IMG/VR virus record: IMGVR_UViG_3300045988_145033
Span: 114,693-178,692 of that record
Length of the DNA: 64,000 nt
DNA from: a virus
Strand: one strand, 5' to 3'
Shown: one piece after another, positions 27,246 to 56,062 of the stretch
How positions within the stretch are numbered: the stretch's first letter is position 1
Layout: each line of letters starts with the position of its first letter
Program-made: the position numbers and the translations under genes
Notes under the pieces: model-generated
What the model was told of the DNA's origin: nothing
Seen by the model: the letters and a program-made list of their open reading frames with translations, nothing else
The model's database searches: none

Positions 27246-29132
27246 TTATTCTTCATCATTGAAATTAGGATTGTTTAATTTAACACCCATAGCCATAAAT
27301 AGAGCATTTACATTTTGTATACTTTCTTGCTCTGTCATAGAATTTATGTATTTCAAATCATCAGGGTGAAGTGAGTTCACTTGAACGTCAGCAACAAGCG
27401 ATGATTTTCTAACTGGTGTATTTCTTATTCTACTTTCACCTGTTCTTAATATAATACCACGAGAGTCAAAGCTACCCTTTGCTCTTAGAGACAACTGAGT
27501 TTCAGCAACTTGCTTCAAAGGTGTTACAAAAAGTTTAGATACAAATGCTTCTCCTAAACACATTTCTCCATGTTCTGTATTCATATAAACTTTAGTTCTT
27601 TTTACGTTAAGTCCTACAGAGTTCATATAGTTACGAGCTTCATAGCAAGTACCAATAGTAGTTCCACTATGATAAGTAGATTGATACCAACGAATTTGTG
27701 GGTCTTTTATAAAATCTTCAAATCCGCCATTTTCAAATTCATACTTATAAGCTTCATACATCTTCTTATCCATAATAGATAATATCTTTAAGATATGAGT
27801 TTTCATTTCATCTAGTGGCTTTAGCTTCTCTCTTATAAATCTTTCTATTACCATTGTGATATAAGTTTGAAACATTTCCATCGGAACTTCCATAATAGCA
27901 CGATTAAATAGTGCTAGACAGTTTCCAAGATATTCAAGGTTTCCATATTCTTTTGTGTAATATTTACCACTATTAAATACACTAGAAACTGTGAACTTAT
28001 TTCCACATCTACCTGTAATCTTTTGTCCATTTATAGGAACTTCTCTATCGACAGTTGTAATCTTTAAAACTATTGCTTTCTTTGAAAGTATTTTCTTATA
28101 TTTAAAACCGCCTTCTTTATCATAGATAGTTCTTAAGAAGTTATACTTATCTATAAAATCATATGAGAATTTAGATTCAGAATACTCATCATTTTCATAG
28201 AATTCTTTTAAGGAATCGAGTACCTCTCTTTCATACTTTCTAGTAGCTTCTATAAGTCCCGCAAGATATGTATTTTGACATTGTTCTCCAAGTTTTTGTC
28301 TACAAGTTATATCAACTACTTTTCCTCTTGCATATACTCTTTTGTCATTCTTATTAACTGAATCCATTCCACTTGCGAGTTTCACTCTTTGATACTCTCC
28401 CTTTTGCTTTGCTATTGCTAAAAGTAAATCATTTTGTATATCTTCTCCTACAAGTGGGAAAGGTCTATAAGTATCATCAGTTCCATATAGATTCTTTAGT
28501 ATATCATTATCGACATCTATTATCTCCTCCGTAACTTGATACTTCCAACCAGCAAATCTTTCAGCTAGGCTCGTAGAAATCAGTCCTGCATCTTCGATAG
28601 ATTTGACATCAATAGATAATACAGATAAAGCATTTACTCCCCATTTATACTCCATATCCTCTCCATATGAATTAGTACGTATGATAGATTCGTCTTTTGG
28701 TATTTCATCTCCTTCTTTATACGAAGATAAGTCATCTATCATTTTAACTCCATAGCCAGCTCCAGTTTCTTCATATCCGTGGAACTCTATATAGTTAAAT
28801 TCATCGTTTTCTTTATCATATAGAATATACGAAGTCACACCACAATATTCTCCATTTATATACTTCGGAATAGCTTTACAAAGTGTATAGTTATTCTCGG
28901 CAAATATATTTTTAGTAGATTTAAGAATATCATACGAGTATGCTGTATCTACTATTGGAACTTCACCGTTCTCTATTGGACGATACTGGTTCGAGGCATT
29001 CGAGAACATATTACCTCTATTTTTGGAAACCATACCCTCGTGTGGTATTATGTTACCTTTACCATTGAACCTATCGAGCATTTCATTCCATTCAGGAATT
29101 TCCTTGTATAGAGTTGTCTTTAATTCTTTCAT
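27246..29132 (-). CDS. RNA polymerase beta subunit, C-terminal piece (split msRNAP)
   Basis: GRCGNKF (cf. GRHGNKG), HGEMCLGEAF (cf. [11 protein letters not shown]), C-terminal QESIQNVNALFMAMGVKLN (cf. ESFNVLLKEIRSLGINIE). Confidence 0.65.
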   Translation of the reverse strand: MKELKTTLYKEIPEWNEMLDRFNGKGNIIPHEGMVSKNRGNMFSNASNQYRPIENGEVPIVDTAYSYDILKSTKNIFAENNYTLCKAIPKYINGEYCGVTSYILYDKENDEFNYIEFHGYEETGAGYGVKMIDDLSSYKEGDEIPKDESIIRTNSYGEDMEYKWGVNALSVLSIDVKSIEDAGLISTSLAERFAGWKYQVTEEIIDVDNDILKNLYGTDDTYRPFPLVGEDIQNDLLLAIAKQKGEYQRVKLASGMDSVNKNDKRVYARGKVVDITCRQKLGEQCQNTYLAGLIEATRKYEREVLDSLKEFYENDEYSESKFSYDFIDKYNFLRTIYDKEGGFKYKKILSKKAIVLKITTVDREVPINGQKITGRCGNKFTVSSVFNSGKYYTKEYGNLEYLGNCLALFNRAIMEVPMEMFQTYITMVIERFIREKLKPLDEMKTHILKILSIMDKKMYEAYKYEFENGGFEDFIKDPQIRWYQSTYHSGTTIGTCYEARNYMNSVGLNVKRTKVYMNTEHGEMCLGEAFVSKLFVTPLKQVAETQLSLRAKGSFDSRGIILRTGESRIRNTPVRKSSLVADVQVNSLHPDDLKYINSMTEQESIQNVNALFMAMGVKLNNPNFNDEE

Positions 29133-29171
29133 TTACTTTTCCTCCTTTAAACTTAAATTAACACATCTTGT

Positions 29172-29192
29172 GTCTACATATATAATATATAG
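29172..29192 (-). promoter_or_regulatory. promoter-like motif TATATATTATATATGTAGAC upstream of beta C-piece gene
   Basis: Shared motif. Confidence 0.4.
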
Positions 29193-54059: not shown

Positions 54060-54605
54060 TTATATTCCTTCCTTTCTATAAATTTTATATTTATTATCTA
54101 AAGCTTCGTTTCTATTCTCGTAGAATAGATAATCACTCATATTACCACGATACTTATTAAACCAAGCTTTTATCTCAAGGTATTCTAAAACCGTTTCCAT
54201 TTCTTGTTCAAAATAGTATCTCATCTCAGATTGTATACCCCAGTTTTTAATACCCATACTATACTTAGCCTTTAGCAGTGTGCACATTTCCTCAAATACA
54301 GCAGTAATTGATTTACCAGTGTGCATAGCGTGCATTTGTATAGCATAGGCTACAAGTGATGAAAGTGGTGAATCTGAATCACATATATAAGAAACTAATG
54401 TATCTGGGTGTATATGTGCTACAACTTTATATAAATCGAGATTATTTTCATTCCTTACAAAAGATGCCCAAAATATTTCATAATGGGCATCTGCTGTTAA
54501 AGGATAAGAGATAACCCTATAAGGGTCTAGGATTATCTCTCTTGCAAGATAAGAGGACATGCGAATAAGTCCTTCTACCTTTGTTGGTCTTGACTCAATT
54601 CTCAT
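54060..54605 (-). CDS. hypothetical protein
   Basis: ORF, abuts beta-prime piece. Confidence 0.5.
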   Translation of the reverse strand: MRIESRPTKVEGLIRMSSYLAREIILDPYRVISYPLTADAHYEIFWASFVRNENNLDLYKVVAHIHPDTLVSYICDSDSPLSSLVAYAIQMHAMHTGKSITAVFEEMCTLLKAKYSMGIKNWGIQSEMRYYFEQEMETVLEYLEIKAWFNKYRGNMSDYLFYENRNEALDNKYKIYRKEGI

Positions 54606-56062
54606 TATCTTTCCACCTTCTTCTTAATCTTTCTTAGAAATTCTACATCTTTTGGATTACCTTTATCATCTAGGAACATACAAGCTGTAACGACTTGGTC
54701 ATTAACTCCACCATAAGCTCCATTTATACTTCTGTCCCACCAAAGTGTATATCTCTTAGGATTACATACCATAGAAATTCTCCATCTTAATGCTGGTGGT
54801 AATACATAGTTAGAAGTTGTGTCTCCGTCAAAGTCTCCTCTTATAAGTCCTAATATAATAGGATTTACATATATTATAGGCTCATCACATATATCATAAA
54901 TTTCAAGTGCTATAATACCTGAGAAGTCTATTGTAGGTGGACGGTTAAAGAATATCCATAATCTTTCCGTCTTTACAATATATCTTATAAGTTCTTTCTG
55001 CTTCTTAGTTATAAAGTAGTCTGGATTAGTTATTCTATCAGCTTCCGCAACGCTCATACCTAACTTGTCCATACAATATTTCATAATAAATTCTTTATGT
55101 GTTGTACGGACAATATCTACACCTACTCTACAATATTGCCCAGCTCCTAGCTTAATACTTGCGTCTGGTTCTATAAGAGTTCTTGATGAAAATGTATTCT
55201 TAGTTGAATATATCTCACCCTTTATAGTTTTCTCTTTATCATCTGAAAGCTCGTATGCTAGTTTTTCATACAAAGCTTCCGCATTTTCATAATAGTGCTT
55301 TGCAACGAATTGCATTGATTTTTCAGTTACAGGAAGCGTTCTAAATAGCTTCGCAACTGATATTATATTTGTGTATCTTATAGATAGTTCATCTGCTTGT
55401 ATAACAGGAACGTCCCCATTTTTAGTTATCATAAATCTTCTAAATCTTCTTGAGATAACTGGAAGACAATCTATAAAATACATTTCTTTATTCTTTAAAA
55501 GCCATTCTCTATAAGCTGGCTTTTTAACGTGTTCGTTTACTATATCTTCAAATCTATCATACAGATAAAAAGCATCTGTTTTACTAAAAGGCTTCTTACC
55601 TTGTATTAATTTGTCAAATTTGTTACCTTCCCTTTTAGCATTACCAGACATAAACCGCCTTAATGTCTGAACCCCTAGAGGAGTTAATGCTCTCATAGGA
55701 AGTCTTATCCAACCCATAGTATCCATTGGAAAGTCTTTCTTCTTAACTGTAGTTCCGCATTCTACACAATACTCTCCAATATTATCTGCTCCTATCTTTG
55801 CTCCGCATTTGCATTGATAACGATAAGCTTGAACTATAGGTGGTTCATGCTTTTGTGGACCGAATCTTTTAGCTGAATATATTGTATCCTCAGTTATAAG
55901 AGCGGTGTTATTGTCTTCATCGATAGAGATTTTAAGAAAATCAAAATCTAAATCTATCATGAAGTCTTTTCCTTCTGCTACTCTTTGCTCTCTATATTTG
56001 TCCATATCAAAAAGCTTAAAGTAAATTCCTTCTTTCTTCTCTTCTAATAACAATTTTATCAA
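54605..56062 (-). CDS. RNA polymerase beta-prime subunit, N-terminal piece (regions A-D); TTG start
   Basis: Zinc ribbon QCKCGAK...YCVECGTTV...TMGWIRL (cf. CHCGKYK...ICEKCGVEV...RMGHIEL); FFNRPPTIDFSGIIALE; catalytic GDFDGD. Confidence 0.85.
   Translation of the reverse strand: MIKLLLEEKKEGIYFKLFDMDKYREQRVAEGKDFMIDLDFDFLKISIDEDNNTALITEDTIYSAKRFGPQKHEPPIVQAYRYQCKCGAKIGADNIGEYCVECGTTVKKKDFPMDTMGWIRLPMRALTPLGVQTLRRFMSGNAKREGNKFDKLIQGKKPFSKTDAFYLYDRFEDIVNEHVKKPAYREWLLKNKEMYFIDCLPVISRRFRRFMITKNGDVPVIQADELSIRYTNIISVAKLFRTLPVTEKSMQFVAKHYYENAEALYEKLAYELSDDKEKTIKGEIYSTKNTFSSRTLIEPDASIKLGAGQYCRVGVDIVRTTHKEFIMKYCMDKLGMSVAEADRITNPDYFITKKQKELIRYIVKTERLWIFFNRPPTIDFSGIIALEIYDICDEPIIYVNPIILGLIRGDFDGDTTSNYVLPPALRWRISMVCNPKRYTLWWDRSINGAYGGVNDQVVTACMFLDDKGNPKDVEFLRKIKKKVER

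What the first reader, a model, noticed from the sequence alone, without database searches (positions are those of the whole stretch)
27246..56062. Split, alpha-less multisubunit RNA polymerase: beta-prime N-piece, beta main piece and separate beta C-piece dispersed over 30 kb
54605-56062 carries the beta-prime zinc ribbon (CKCG...CVECG, matching CHCG...CEKCG), the region C-D sequence FFNRPPTIDF and the catalytic GDFDGD, but stops right after region D. 48129-52583 (1484 aa) contains the beta fork-loop-like GLSGLNLDRGYTLEKRIIDPS and VVFMAMPEDYEDATVLSES, but not the downstream beta signatures. Those signatures (GRCGNKF, HGEMCLGEAF, and the conserved C-terminus QESIQNVNALFMAMGVKLN) are in a separate gene, 27246-29132. 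Split beta and beta-prime genes with no alpha are the hallmark of phage-encoded msRNAPs (phiKZ-like and AR9-like jumbo phages). Here the pieces lie on different strands and in different operons, and the beta-prime C-half (trigger loop, bridge helix) is not in the window. The roughly 800-aa N-terminal extension of the beta piece has no obvious counterpart in bacterial beta.
Basis: partly seen in the sequence, partly recalled or inferred. Interest (0 to 1): 0.6.

Follow-up and report, generated by a model that had tools for sequence, protein, structure and literature searches.

The report
Two split phage RNA polymerases, intermixed

Summary
All three ORFs and every quoted motif are present. The window is about 92% identical to the ~180-kb Fusobacterium nucleatum myophages JD-Fnp1/4/6/7. 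The ORFs are phage RNAP beta/beta-prime homologues, closest to AR9/PBS1, Staphylococcus S6-like phages and phiR1-37.

They are not three pieces of one polymerase.
- The 1484-aa ORF is the virion-RNAP (vRNAP) beta N-piece.
- The 628-aa ORF is the non-virion-RNAP (nvRNAP) beta C-piece. The two cover the same beta segment, so they are paralogues, not complements.
- The 485-aa ORF is the nvRNAP beta-prime N-piece.

- 33498-34181 (227 aa) is the vRNAP beta C-piece, the true partner of the 1484-aa protein.
- 23954-25258 (434 aa) is the nvRNAP beta N-piece, the true partner of the 628-aa protein.

The remaining pieces were located only in relatives, outside the window. There the vRNAP beta-prime N and middle parts are fused into one 930-aa protein, which is unusual. 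The beta "extension" is about 420-475 aa, not 800, and has a known counterpart. An AR9-like AT-rich promoter motif precedes the nvRNAP beta C-piece gene exactly and the beta-prime N-piece gene as a shifted variant. No fifth nvRNAP subunit was found.

Verdict: a new member of a known kind.

The parts
48129..52583 (+). Virion RNAP (vRNAP) beta N-piece, 1484 aa. Residues about 1-450 are a non-beta N-terminal extension. Residues about 450-1484 correspond to bacterial beta from its N-terminus to just past the PSRMN motif.
   Evidence: phrog_3148 E 1e-108, covering residues 202-1474. AR9 gp189, annotated as a virion RNAP subunit, E 2e-39. Labelled homologues are Erwinia RAY 'putative vRNAP beta subunit 1' and Staphylococcus Madawaska 'viral RNA polymerase beta subunit'. 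Bacterial beta 565-733 and 864-928 align to residues 1064-1243 and 1398-1455.
48129..49500 (+). N-terminal extension of the vRNAP beta N-piece, about 420-475 aa, with an acidic stretch at residues 301-350. Inferred to be a head-targeting or propeptide domain.
   Evidence: The first beta motif (LPKIVNGNKMLINGTW) is at residue 576, against about 100-155 in nvRNAP beta N-pieces. Residues 301-350 hold 19 Asp/Glu in 50. SPN3US gp241 has a comparable roughly 400-aa domain and is required for packaging of all vRNAP subunits (PMC5105663). The function here is inferred, not shown.
   Evidence: phrog_3233 'RNA polymerase beta subunit' E 1.7e-21. SPN3US gp218, the vRNAP beta-C shown to be in virions, gives phmmer E 3e-10. 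Three collinear weak hits fall in the exons of AR9 gp078. The motif NRHSEDIV...GSKGAG...NEVAQLLSGGYEKVIEEMF at residues 125-170 matches HARS...GGK...[21 protein letters not shown] by my own reading.
27246..29132 (-). Non-virion RNAP (nvRNAP) beta C-piece, 628 aa, running from the DDANR-equivalent motif to the beta C-terminus.
   Evidence: AR9 nvRNAP chain 7s00_C (gp089) E 7.8e-27 over residues 20-468, and phiKZ gp71 chain 7ogp_C E 0.003. phrog_3295 E 6.5e-42. tblastn hits are labelled 'non-viral RNA polymerase beta subunit' and 'beta subunit, C-terminus'. AR9 gp089 is annotated as a non-virion RNAP subunit.
23954..25258 (-). nvRNAP beta N-piece, 434 aa, highly divergent.
   Evidence: Profile-profile hhalign against the AR9 gp105 family gives probability 94.9%, E 4.5e-8 over the C-terminal 87 columns. 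A single-sequence hhalign of the N-terminal motif region gives E 1.7e-4. The ORF ranks first of all ORFs of 150 aa or more in the window plus JD-Fnp1. The AF2 model (pLDDT 60) has the AR9 nvRNAP core chain 7s00_c as top Foldseek PDB hit (E 3.9e-4, prob 0.95), followed by Rpb2-type chains and a phiKZ nvRNAP chain. Motifs are YIPRLINNVIRLNGNHYF at 155 and QLGIIDPIGTSTSDNVGLAG at 398. No PHROGs or Pfam hit.
54605..56062 (-). nvRNAP beta-prime N-piece, 485 aa (probably 482 aa from the TTG at 56053). It has the zinc ribbon and the DPBB domain with catalytic GDFDGD, and ends at the family's usual split just after the DPBB.
   Evidence: AR9 nvRNAP beta-prime chain 7s00_d E 1e-5. AR9 gp270, annotated non-virion beta-prime N-terminus, local tblastn E 1e-6. 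phiR1-37 g274 'RpoC, N-terminus' E 2e-12. phrog_2987 E 1.7e-14. Pfam Rpb1_2 scores 20.2 bits, below its 25.3 cut-off. The vRNAP beta-prime N function in relatives is taken by a different gene, JDFnp1_14.
54821..54838 (-). Codons for the catalytic metal-binding motif GDFDGD (the equivalent of NADFDGD).
   Evidence: Aligned to the DFDGD of bacterial, plant Pol IV/V and AR9 beta-prime chains.
29176..29191 (-). AT-rich promoter-like motif TATATATTATATATGT(AGAC), about 40 nt upstream of the nvRNAP beta C-piece gene and directly after a terminator-like hairpin (29204-29223).
   Evidence: The pattern TATATATWATNNNTGT gives 10 matches at up to 1 mismatch against 2.5 expected, with 0 of 100 shuffles reaching 10. 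Sequence context. It resembles the AR9 early (vRNAP) promoter AAATATATATTAT-(6N)-G (PMC5312081). Function is inferred.
56109..56126 (-). Variant of the same motif (TATATATTATTAAATGTG, spacing shifted by one base) upstream of the nvRNAP beta-prime N-piece gene, directly after a hairpin.
   Evidence: Read directly from the sequence. Similarity by eye only. It was not among the matches listed by the pattern search.
30345..30404 (-). Strongest copy of the promoter-like element (TTTTTTTTTCAATTATATATAATAAATGTAGAC), followed by a conserved leader stem-loop. It lies upstream of the small ORFs 29956-30297 and 29231-29935.
   Evidence: One copy in the window and about 10 in JD-Fnp1, all on the same strand; position-weight-matrix score about 72 bits. 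In the leader hairpin, 7 of 13 predicted pairs show compensatory changes.
25913..27259 (-). ORF of unknown function between the two nvRNAP beta genes. The real start is probably at 27178, after its own promoter-like motif at 27219-27234 and a ribosome-binding site. It is an untested candidate accessory or fifth subunit.
   Evidence: Its position is conserved in a clade only about 70% identical, but the sequence is only 32% identical there, against 71-73% for the flanking RNAP genes. No hit in PHROGs, Pfam or PDB profile searches. The single-sequence AF2 model was unusable, pLDDT 39.

Best explanation
**What it is.** The window is part of a roughly 180-kb Fusobacterium nucleatum myophage of the AR9/phiKZ transcription type. 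Such phages encode two alpha-less multisubunit RNA polymerases built from split beta and beta-prime homologues.

**The five genes in the window.**
- vRNAP beta N-piece: 48129-52583.
- vRNAP beta C-piece: 33498-34181.
- nvRNAP beta N-piece: 23954-25258.
- nvRNAP beta C-piece: 27246-29132.
- nvRNAP beta-prime N-piece: 54605-56062.

**How it most likely works.** These steps are inferred from AR9, phiKZ and SPN3US; none was shown here.
1. The vRNAP subunits are made late and assemble.
2. They are carried into the capsid through the long N-terminal domain of the beta N-piece.
3. They are injected with the DNA.
4. They start transcription at AT-rich TATATATWAT-type early promoters.
5. Those early genes include the nvRNAP subunit genes.
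6. The nvRNAP then transcribes middle and late genes, including the vRNAP genes.

This would make the phage independent of the host polymerase.

**What is shown and what is inferred.** Homology, split positions, catalytic motifs, conservation and the promoter-like motif are shown in silico. Virion packaging, timing and promoter use are inferred.
For: **Source of the window.** It is 92-93% identical in DNA to JD-Fnp1/4/6/7.

**Family placement.** All three original ORFs are placed by PHROGs, by the solved AR9 and phiKZ nvRNAP chains and by tblastn against phage genomes.

**Assignment to two enzymes**, using the experimentally grounded AR9 annotation (PMC5449584, PMC5312081):
- 1484 aa matches gp189 (virion), E 2e-39.
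- 628 aa matches gp089 (non-virion), E 4e-27.
- 485 aa matches gp270 (non-virion), E 1e-6.

**The two beta ORFs overlap in homology.**
- AR9 gp089 also hits the 1484-aa ORF at residues 1196-1477, tblastn E 1e-6, phmmer E 3.6e-7.
- Bacterial beta aligns to the DDANR and GNKG regions of the 1484-aa ORF.
- The same motifs sit at residues 37 and 374 of the 628-aa ORF.

**True partners.**
- The 227-aa ORF.
- The 434-aa ORF.

**Purifying selection.**
- RNAP proteins are 95-99% identical in amino acids (97-99% for all but the beta-prime N-piece in JD-Fnp1) where DNA is about 92% identical.
- They are 71-73% identical in a second clade where neighbouring genes are 31-43% identical.

**Rest of the set in relatives**:
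- JDFnp1_14 is the vRNAP beta-prime N plus middle part.
- JDFnp1_138 is the vRNAP beta-prime C-piece.
- JDFnp1_153 is the nvRNAP beta-prime C-piece (7s00_D, E 1.8e-22).

**Promoter-like motif.** It resembles the AR9 early promoter. It lies before the nvRNAP beta-C gene and, as a variant, before the nvRNAP beta-prime-N gene. It was not seen in the short upstream stretches I read before the vRNAP beta-N gene and the operon holding the vRNAP beta-C gene.
Against: - No homologue of the nvRNAP fifth subunit (AR9 gp226 / phiKZ gp68) was found in the window or in JD-Fnp1.
- Pfam recognises none of the beta pieces, and the beta-prime piece only below threshold.
- The nvRNAP beta-N assignment rests on remote homology: hhalign probability 94.9%, and a moderate-quality model with low TM-scores of about 0.2.
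- Direct BLASTP between the two beta paralogues is not significant, E 0.097. The overlap argument is transitive, through AR9 and bacterial beta.
- 'Virion' versus 'non-virion' is transferred from AR9 and SPN3US by homology. No proteomic data exist for this phage.
- Terminator-like hairpins lie between several genes, so operon structure is uncertain.
- The beta-prime genes of the vRNAP and the beta-prime C-piece of the nvRNAP were seen only in related genomes, not in this window.
Confidence: 0.88

Rival explanations
1. One reading: a single, dispersed, split RNAP in which 48129-52583 is the main beta piece, 27246-29132 supplies the missing beta C-terminus, and 54605-56062 is the beta-prime N-half.
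For: The clean canonical motifs GRCGNKF and HGEMCLGEAF occur only in the 628-aa ORF. In the 1484-aa ORF the equivalents are degenerate. All three ORFs fall in RNAP families.
Against: - The 1484-aa ORF aligns to the same beta segment as residues about 37-386 of the 628-aa ORF, so joining them would duplicate the beta DPBB region.
- Their closest characterised homologues belong to different AR9 enzymes, gp189 virion and gp089 non-virion.
- Separate, precisely complementary partners exist for each.
Confidence: 0.04
2. Only one of the two sets is a working polymerase. The other, for example the highly divergent virion-type set with NALKGETSK in place of GRHGNKG, would be a decayed or repurposed structural or ejection protein.
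For: - The vRNAP beta motifs are strongly degenerate.
- Several homologues are annotated only as 'virion structural protein'.
- No biochemical data exist for any vRNAP of this phage.
Against: - The same degeneracy is typical of the family. In SPN3US the homologous beta N-piece gene (gp241) is essential and its product is needed for all vRNAP subunits to enter the head (PMC5105663).
- The vRNAP beta-prime of relatives keeps the DGDLDGD catalytic motif.
- The pieces are 97-99% conserved among isolates. The fused beta-prime is also 70-71% conserved, intact and full-length, in a second clade.
- AR9-like early promoter motifs are present.
Confidence: 0.05
3. The ORFs are fragments produced by assembly or sequencing errors, or pseudogenised remains of bacterial rpoB/rpoC carried by a mobile element.
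For: Their lengths are unusual, and GenBank annotations of relatives are inconsistent ('subunit alpha', 'polymerase basic protein 2 protein').
Against: - Identical gene boundaries occur in four independently sequenced isolates. For the genes checked, they also occur in more than 10 metagenomic viral contigs.
- The pieces lie on different strands and up to 30 kb apart.
- The split positions coincide with those of AR9 and SPN3US subunits.
- Similarity to bacterial beta and beta-prime is limited to short stretches at marginal E-values.
Confidence: 0.02

Closest known systems
Bacillus phage AR9 / PBS1 two-RNAP system (vRNAP gp078, gp125, gp145, gp189, gp264; nvRNAP gp089, gp105, gp154, gp270, gp226; structures 7S00, 7S01, 7UM0, 7UM1)
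   Same: - AR9 and its relatives are the best or near-best characterised homologues of every piece.
- The beta split positions are the same: the nvRNAP split before the DDANR motif, the vRNAP split just after PSRMN.
- The nvRNAP beta-prime split after the DPBB is the same.
- The AT-rich early-promoter-like motif TATATATTAT-(N6) is similar.
- The UvsX-like gene lies near the nvRNAP beta C-piece gene in both.
   Different: - Amino-acid identity is only 22-30%.
- The genome is about 180 kb against 251 kb.
- The RNAP genes here have no introns or homing endonucleases.
- The vRNAP beta C-piece has no HD domain (227 aa, RNAP domain only).
- No gp226 homologue was detected.
- In relatives the vRNAP beta-prime N and middle pieces are one gene instead of two.
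- Whether the DNA contains uracil is unknown.
Salmonella phage SPN3US / Pseudomonas phage phiKZ vRNAP (SPN3US gp241 beta-N, gp218 beta-C, gp240 beta-prime-N, gp42 beta-prime-M, gp244 beta-prime-C)
   Same: - A large beta N-piece with a long non-beta N-terminal domain, plus a small beta C-piece of about 220 aa (gp218 is 222 aa, against 227 aa here; E 3e-10).
- A small beta-prime C-piece homologue is present in relatives (AR9 gp125 family, phrog_2926).
   Different: - Sequence similarity is much lower than to the AR9 group.
- Whether a phage nucleus (chimallin) is encoded was not tested.
- In the Fusobacterium phage group, beta-prime N and M are fused.
Yersinia phage phiR1-37, Listeria phage LPJP1 and Staphylococcus S6-like jumbo phages
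   Same: They give top tblastn hits for the vRNAP beta N-piece (phiR1-37 g099 E 1e-69; LPJP1 E 5e-72) and for the nvRNAP beta-prime N-piece (phiR1-37 g274 E 2e-12).
   Different: Their genomes are 220-270 kb and their hosts are Proteobacteria or Firmicutes. Identity is 24-28%.
Bacterial and cyanobacterial RNAP core (beta, beta-prime; the cyanobacterial gamma/beta-prime split)
   Same: - The DPBB catalytic core motifs (DFDGD; the GxKG region), the zinc ribbon and beta region I.
- The nvRNAP beta-prime split follows the DPBB, as in cyanobacteria (PMC7598289).
   Different: - No alpha, omega or sigma homologue was found.
- Beta is split.
- Sequences are too divergent for Pfam gathering thresholds.

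Membership tests
phiKZ/AR9-type phage multisubunit RNAPs (two-RNAP 'jumbo' phage group) | Homologues of bacterial beta-prime with the DPBB catalytic Asp triad | tested here: met
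   GDFDGD at residue 409 of the 485-aa ORF aligns to the DFDGD of AR9, bacterial and Pol IV/V chains. The vRNAP beta-prime of relatives has DGDLDGD.
phiKZ/AR9-type phage multisubunit RNAPs (two-RNAP 'jumbo' phage group) | Homologues of bacterial beta, including the second DPBB and region H (GxKG) and region I | tested here: met
   The 628-aa ORF has GRCGNKF and HGEMCLGEAF, aligned to AR9 gp089. The 1484-aa ORF aligns to bacterial beta. The 227-aa ORF matches SPN3US gp218 and phrog_3233.
phiKZ/AR9-type phage multisubunit RNAPs (two-RNAP 'jumbo' phage group) | Two paralogous sets, one virion-type and one non-virion-type | tested here: met
   Both beta sets are in the window. Both beta-prime sets were seen only when JD-Fnp1 is included. 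The virion and non-virion labels are transferred by homology.
phiKZ/AR9-type phage multisubunit RNAPs (two-RNAP 'jumbo' phage group) | Characteristic split sites: nvRNAP beta before DDANR; vRNAP beta after PSRMN; beta-prime after the DPBB in both enzymes | tested here: inconclusive
   Both beta splits and the nvRNAP beta-prime split are met. The vRNAP beta-prime split after the DPBB is NOT present in the related genomes: JDFnp1_14 is a continuous 930-aa N-plus-middle protein. That gene lies outside this window.
phiKZ/AR9-type phage multisubunit RNAPs (two-RNAP 'jumbo' phage group) | No alpha, omega or sigma homologues | tested here: inconclusive
   No such hit appeared in PHROGs scans of 38 of the 51 window ORFs of 150 aa or more, or in Pfam scans of 17 of them. 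Thirteen ORFs of 150-200 aa, all smaller ORFs and most of the genome were not scanned. The 'subunit alpha' labels in JD-Fnp1/4 are misnomers for beta and beta-prime homologues.
phiKZ/AR9-type phage multisubunit RNAPs (two-RNAP 'jumbo' phage group) | A fifth nvRNAP subunit (phiKZ gp68 / AR9 gp226 family) needed for promoter recognition | tested here: inconclusive
   No significant hit came from phmmer, a family HMM or hhalign against all ORFs of the window and JD-Fnp1. The family is known to be very divergent. Candidates 25913-27259 and 14775-15926 remain unsupported.
phiKZ/AR9-type phage multisubunit RNAPs (two-RNAP 'jumbo' phage group) | vRNAP subunits physically present in virions; infection independent of host RNAP | not testable with these tools
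   Requires virion proteomics and rifampicin experiments.
phiKZ/AR9-type phage multisubunit RNAPs (two-RNAP 'jumbo' phage group) | Extended, highly conserved AT-rich early promoters | tested here: met
   TATATATWATNNNTGT gives 10 matches against 2.5 expected, with 0 of 100 shuffles reaching 10. The 4 exact matches are all on the minus strand, shortly upstream of start codons. A longer element of about 60 nt occurs once in the window and about 10 times in JD-Fnp1. In silico only.
'Jumbo phage' (genome over 200 kb) | Genome length above 200 kb | tested here: not met
   Complete relatives are 174.5-180.2 kb, and related viral contigs reach 178.9 kb. The system works like that of jumbo phages, but the genome falls below the conventional threshold.

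The most novel reading that the evidence does not exclude
The Fusobacterium-phage lineage would be a compact (about 175-180 kb), deeply divergent branch of the two-RNAP phages. Its virion polymerase keeps the beta-prime N-terminal and middle parts in one polypeptide, an exception to the post-DPBB split described as common to all vRNAPs and nvRNAPs. If this is retention of the ancestral state rather than a secondary re-fusion, the vRNAP and nvRNAP beta-prime splits arose independently. That would weaken the idea that the split was inherited from a cyanobacterium-like donor. The fused gene was seen only in relatives, outside this window.
Probability: 0.3. Interest if true: 0.55.

Novelty: new member of a known kind. 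Interest (0 to 1): 0.35.

Why it matters
- It extends the host-RNAP-independent, two-polymerase transcription strategy of phiKZ/AR9-type phages to phages of Fusobacterium, an oral and colorectal-cancer-associated anaerobe, and to genomes below 200 kb.
- It gives a corrected annotation for phages being considered for therapy (JD-Fnp1/4). Their published description reports 148 of 178 genes as hypothetical and does not mention a polymerase (PMC9670143).
- Independence from the host RNAP would bear on host range, resistance to transcription-targeting defences and rifampicin combination use.
- For RNAP evolution, the very divergent subunits and the unsplit vRNAP beta-prime of this lineage are useful extra data points. 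The core finding is otherwise expected for this phage type.

Tried and rejected
1. **Pfam on all pieces.** The only hit was RNA_pol_Rpb1_2, below threshold, for the beta-prime piece. Nothing was found for the four beta pieces. Pfam is therefore not informative here.
2. **Direct BLASTP between paralogues** (1484 vs 628 aa; 227 vs 628 aa; 485 aa vs JDFnp1_14). The results were not significant or marginal, E 0.05-0.1. Paralogy was established through AR9 and bacterial references instead.
3. **The 227-aa ORF as the small vRNAP beta-prime C-piece** (the SPN3US gp244 type). Rejected. Its SPN3US homologue is gp218, the beta C-piece, and the AR9 gp125 homologue is a different gene, JDFnp1_138.
4. **25913-27259 as the vRNAP beta C-piece**, because of 'GGMEVPIGAYGFAELYAAF'. 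Rejected as a chance resemblance: no profile, PDB or AR9 support.
5. **25913-27259 as the fifth subunit.** It could be neither supported nor excluded. The AF2 model had pLDDT 39.
6. **JD-Fnp1 136457-138268 as the nvRNAP beta N-piece** (phmmer E 0.037). Rejected after reading the alignment.
7. **Search for the gp226/gp68-type subunit** with phmmer, a family HMM and hhalign. No hit.
8. **Search of 1.8 billion representative proteins with 14775-15926.** Only 4 hits, none informative.
9. **PHROGs scans of 20 further large JD-Fnp1 ORFs.** No further RNAP-annotated family was hit.
10. **The window as identical to an IMG/VR contig.** Rejected: about 90-92% nucleotide identity.

Full report
**Observation.** The three ORFs are real: 27246-29132 (-, 628 aa), 48129-52583 (+, 1484 aa) and 54605-56062 (-, 485 aa, TTG start). 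The window is AT-rich (about 31% GC) and mostly coded on the minus strand.

**Source.** A 20-kb stretch of the window (40000-60000) is 92-93% identical to four Fusobacterium nucleatum phages, JD-Fnp1, 4, 6 and 7, of 174.5-180.2 kb. The window corresponds to roughly 46-110 kb of JD-Fnp1. JD-Fnp1 and JD-Fnp4 are myoviruses; JD-Fnp1 has a head of about 155 x 140 nm. Their description lists 148 of 178 genes as hypothetical and never mentions a polymerase (PMC9670143). IMG/VR holds further relatives, including a second clade about 70% identical in protein. None of the five contigs compared is identical to the window.

**Family placement.**
- Pfam fails on the beta pieces and gives only a sub-threshold Rpb1 domain 2 hit for the 485-aa ORF.
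- PHROGs places all three in 'RNA polymerase beta subunit' families, with E 6.5e-42, 1e-108 and 1.7e-14.
- Against solved structures, the 628-aa ORF matches AR9 nvRNAP chain 7s00_C (E 7.8e-27) and phiKZ gp71.
- The 485-aa ORF matches the AR9 nvRNAP beta-prime N chain (E 1e-5) and then many cellular beta-prime and Rpb1 chains around DFDGD.
- The 1484-aa ORF matches bacterial beta at two collinear regions.
- tblastn finds the 1484-aa ORF in 282 phage records. The best hits outside Fusobacterium phages are phiR1-37, LPJP1, S6-like Staphylococcus phages and PBS1/AR9.

**One polymerase or two.**

The literature describes two enzymes in this phage group (PMC7598289).
- A virion RNAP has beta N and C pieces and beta-prime N, middle and C pieces.
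- A non-virion RNAP has beta N and C, beta-prime N and C, and a fifth subunit.
- The beta split sites differ between the two enzymes.

I fetched the AR9 record, whose annotation names each subunit (gene lists in PMC5312081 and PMC5449584). I then searched all window and JD-Fnp1 ORFs against it.

| Window ORF | AR9 match | Enzyme | E-value |
|---|---|---|---|
| 1484 aa | gp189 | virion, beta-N | 2e-39 |
| 628 aa | gp089 | non-virion, beta-C | 4e-27 |
| 485 aa | gp270 | non-virion, beta-prime-N | 1e-6 |

- gp089 also hits residues 1196-1477 of the 1484-aa ORF: E 1e-6 by tblastn and 3.6e-7 by phmmer.
- The DDANR-like motif is at residue 1092 of the 1484-aa ORF and at 37 of the 628-aa ORF.
- The GNKG-like motif is at residue 1418 of the 1484-aa ORF and at 374 of the 628-aa ORF.

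The two beta ORFs therefore cover the same part of beta. They are paralogues from different enzymes, not complementary pieces.

**The missing partners are in the window.**

*33498-34181 (227 aa), the vRNAP beta C-piece.*
- It hits phrog_3233 'RNA polymerase beta subunit' (E 1.7e-21).
- It matches SPN3US gp218 (E 3e-10). gp218 is the 222-aa vRNAP beta C-fragment found in SPN3US virions (PMC5105663).
- It gives three collinear weak hits inside the exons of AR9 gp078.
- It carries a recognisable beta region I motif.
- It starts where the 1484-aa protein stops.

*23954-25258 (434 aa), the nvRNAP beta N-piece.*
- It has no PHROGs or Pfam hit.
- An alignment of its relatives compared with 42 members of the AR9 gp105 family gives hhalign probability 94.9%, E 4.5e-8.
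- A second, collinear N-terminal match has E 1.7e-4.
- Among all ORFs of 150 aa or more in the window and JD-Fnp1, it and its orthologue rank first by about 40-fold. The known paralogue comes next, at the correct region.
- An AF2 model (pLDDT 60) has the AR9 nvRNAP core chain 7s00_c as best Foldseek PDB hit (E 3.9e-4). All the next nine hits are second-largest RNAP subunits, including a phiKZ nvRNAP chain. TM-scores are low, so this is supporting evidence, not proof.

**Pieces outside the window** (in JD-Fnp1).
- JDFnp1_153 is the nvRNAP beta-prime C-piece (7s00_D, E 1.8e-22).
- JDFnp1_138 is the vRNAP beta-prime C-piece (AR9 gp125, E 1.6e-6; phrog_2926).
- JDFnp1_14 (930 aa) matches AR9 gp145 (vRNAP beta-prime N) over residues 1-520 and gp264 (vRNAP beta-prime middle) over residues 530-919.
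- This fusion is an intact ORF in all four isolates. It was also checked as intact in one contig of each clade.
- In the other 242 phage records that match, no single place covers 80% of it. Every non-Fusobacterium record listed shows the N and middle parts at two separate places.
- The published generalisation is that the beta-prime of both enzymes is split after the DPBB (PMC7598289). This lineage is an exception.

**N-terminal extension.**
- The first conserved beta motif of the 1484-aa protein is at residue 576. Its counterpart lies at about 100-155 in nvRNAP beta N-pieces. The extension is therefore about 420-475 aa.
- Residues 202 onward are covered by the phage family profile, so much of the extension is conserved among vRNAP beta N-pieces.
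- SPN3US gp241 has a comparable roughly 400-aa domain. Without gp241 no vRNAP subunit enters the head (PMC5105663).
- A head-targeting role here is an inference.

**Promoter-like motifs.**
- TATATATWATNNNTGT occurs 10 times at up to 1 mismatch against 2.5 expected; 0 of 100 shuffles reach 10.
- The four exact copies are all on the minus strand. Three of them, and one of the 1-mismatch copies, were read about 20-45 nt upstream of a ribosome-binding site.
- They lie before the nvRNAP beta C-piece gene (29176-29191), before 25913-27178, before 16935-18674, and within a 60-nt element at 30345-30404.
- A spacing variant precedes the nvRNAP beta-prime N-piece gene.
- I did not see the motif in the roughly 90-150 nt I read before the vRNAP beta N-piece gene and the operon holding the vRNAP beta C-piece gene.
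- The motif resembles the AR9 early promoter AAATATATATTAT-(6N)-G (PMC5312081).
- This fits the model in which the injected vRNAP transcribes the nvRNAP genes, but it is untested.
- Terminator-like hairpins are six-fold enriched in 23-36 kb: 18 found against 3.0 expected. They separate several of these genes.

**Not found.**
- No homologue of AR9 gp226 / phiKZ gp68 was detected.
- Two positional candidates remain unsupported. 25913-27259 lies between the nvRNAP beta genes in both clades but is only 32% conserved. 14775-15926 lies upstream of the primase gene, as gp226 does in AR9.
- No alpha-, omega- or sigma-like hit appeared in any scan, but the scans were not exhaustive.

**Conclusion.** The finding is a true positive for a phage multisubunit RNAP. 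It is a member of a well-described kind, and the proposed assembly of the pieces was wrong. The window holds five subunit genes of two enzymes. The lineage-specific points are the sub-200-kb genome, the Fusobacterium host, the very divergent nvRNAP beta N-piece and, in relatives, the unsplit vRNAP beta-prime.

Noticed in passing
JD-Fnp1 (ON464759.1) 14842-17634 = L002:14842-17634; also L029:1501-4290 and L033:1501-4284: The vRNAP beta-prime N-terminal and middle pieces, separate genes in the other phages listed, are fused into one intact 930-aa ORF with no linker (junction around residues 520-530). This holds in the four JD-Fnp isolates and in IMG/VR contigs of both the 96-97% and the 70% clades. 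Only 4 of 246 matching phage records cover 80% or more of the protein in one place.
   Followed up: partly
window 30345-30404 (-); JD-Fnp1 around 1990, 31476, 40593, 43812, 76623, 127796, 148452 and 161515 (-): A roughly 60-nt conserved element: a T-run, then CAATTATATATAATAAAnGTAGA, then a leader stem-loop (for example CTTAAG-AAGG-CTTAAG, with variants TTCAAG/CTTGAA and CCTGAG/CTCAGG). RNAalifold finds 13 pairs, 7 of them with compensatory double changes. It is a candidate strong early promoter plus a structured 5' leader. One JD-Fnp1 copy lies upstream of the gene run that contains the nvRNAP beta-prime C-piece gene.
   Followed up: partly
window 35398-35418 and 53431-53448; 8 copies in JD-Fnp1: A repeated GC-rich hairpin, GGTGAGGATAAACCCCACC, flanked by A-runs and T-runs. 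It looks like a reused, possibly bidirectional, intrinsic terminator.
   Followed up: no
window 15934, 25893, 27187, 30791, 36267, 46089 (-); 25 sites in JD-Fnp1: A highly stereotyped translation-initiation context, AAATTTTAAGGAGG(A), 6-10 nt before start codons. It is far more uniform than a plain Shine-Dalgarno sequence.
   Followed up: no
window 25913-27259 (-): The listed ORF start is probably wrong. A promoter-like motif (27219-27234) and a strong ribosome-binding site precede an ATG at 27178 (MTIRMTKK...). The gene keeps its place between the two nvRNAP beta genes in a second clade but is only 32% identical there. Its function is unknown.
   Followed up: partly
window 13568-15926 (-): The DNA primase gene (13568-14557; phrog_19847) is preceded by an unknown 383-aa gene (14775-15926). 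This mirrors the AR9 arrangement gp226 (nvRNAP fifth subunit) then gp225 (primase). No sequence similarity to gp226 was detectable.
   Followed up: partly
window 37186-38376 (-): A free-standing endonuclease gene (phrog_15137, E 2e-25). It is 37% identical over 186 aa to the DNA region of AR9 gp233, a zinc-finger-fused endonuclease. JD-Fnp1 annotates it as 'DNA gyrase subunit A'. Unlike in AR9, none of the RNAP genes here is interrupted by introns or homing endonucleases.
   Followed up: no
window 63950-64000 (-): A 12-nt tandem repeat, GAACCTAGAGTT, with at least 3-4 copies, running into the window end. JD-Fnp1 has a diverged single-copy version at the corresponding place.
   Followed up: no
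JD-Fnp1 and JD-Fnp4 GenBank records: The annotations of the RNAP genes are misleading. 'DNA-directed RNA polymerase subunit alpha' is used for the beta N-piece, the beta C-piece and the fused beta-prime. 'Polymerase basic protein 2 protein' is used for the vRNAP beta C-piece. The nvRNAP beta N-piece is 'hypothetical protein'.
   Followed up: yes
window 38907-40691 (+): A 594-aa ORF with no PHROGs or Pfam match. Its size is compatible with a phage-nucleus shell protein (chimallin), but there is no evidence either way. Whether this lineage forms a nucleus was not tested.
   Followed up: no
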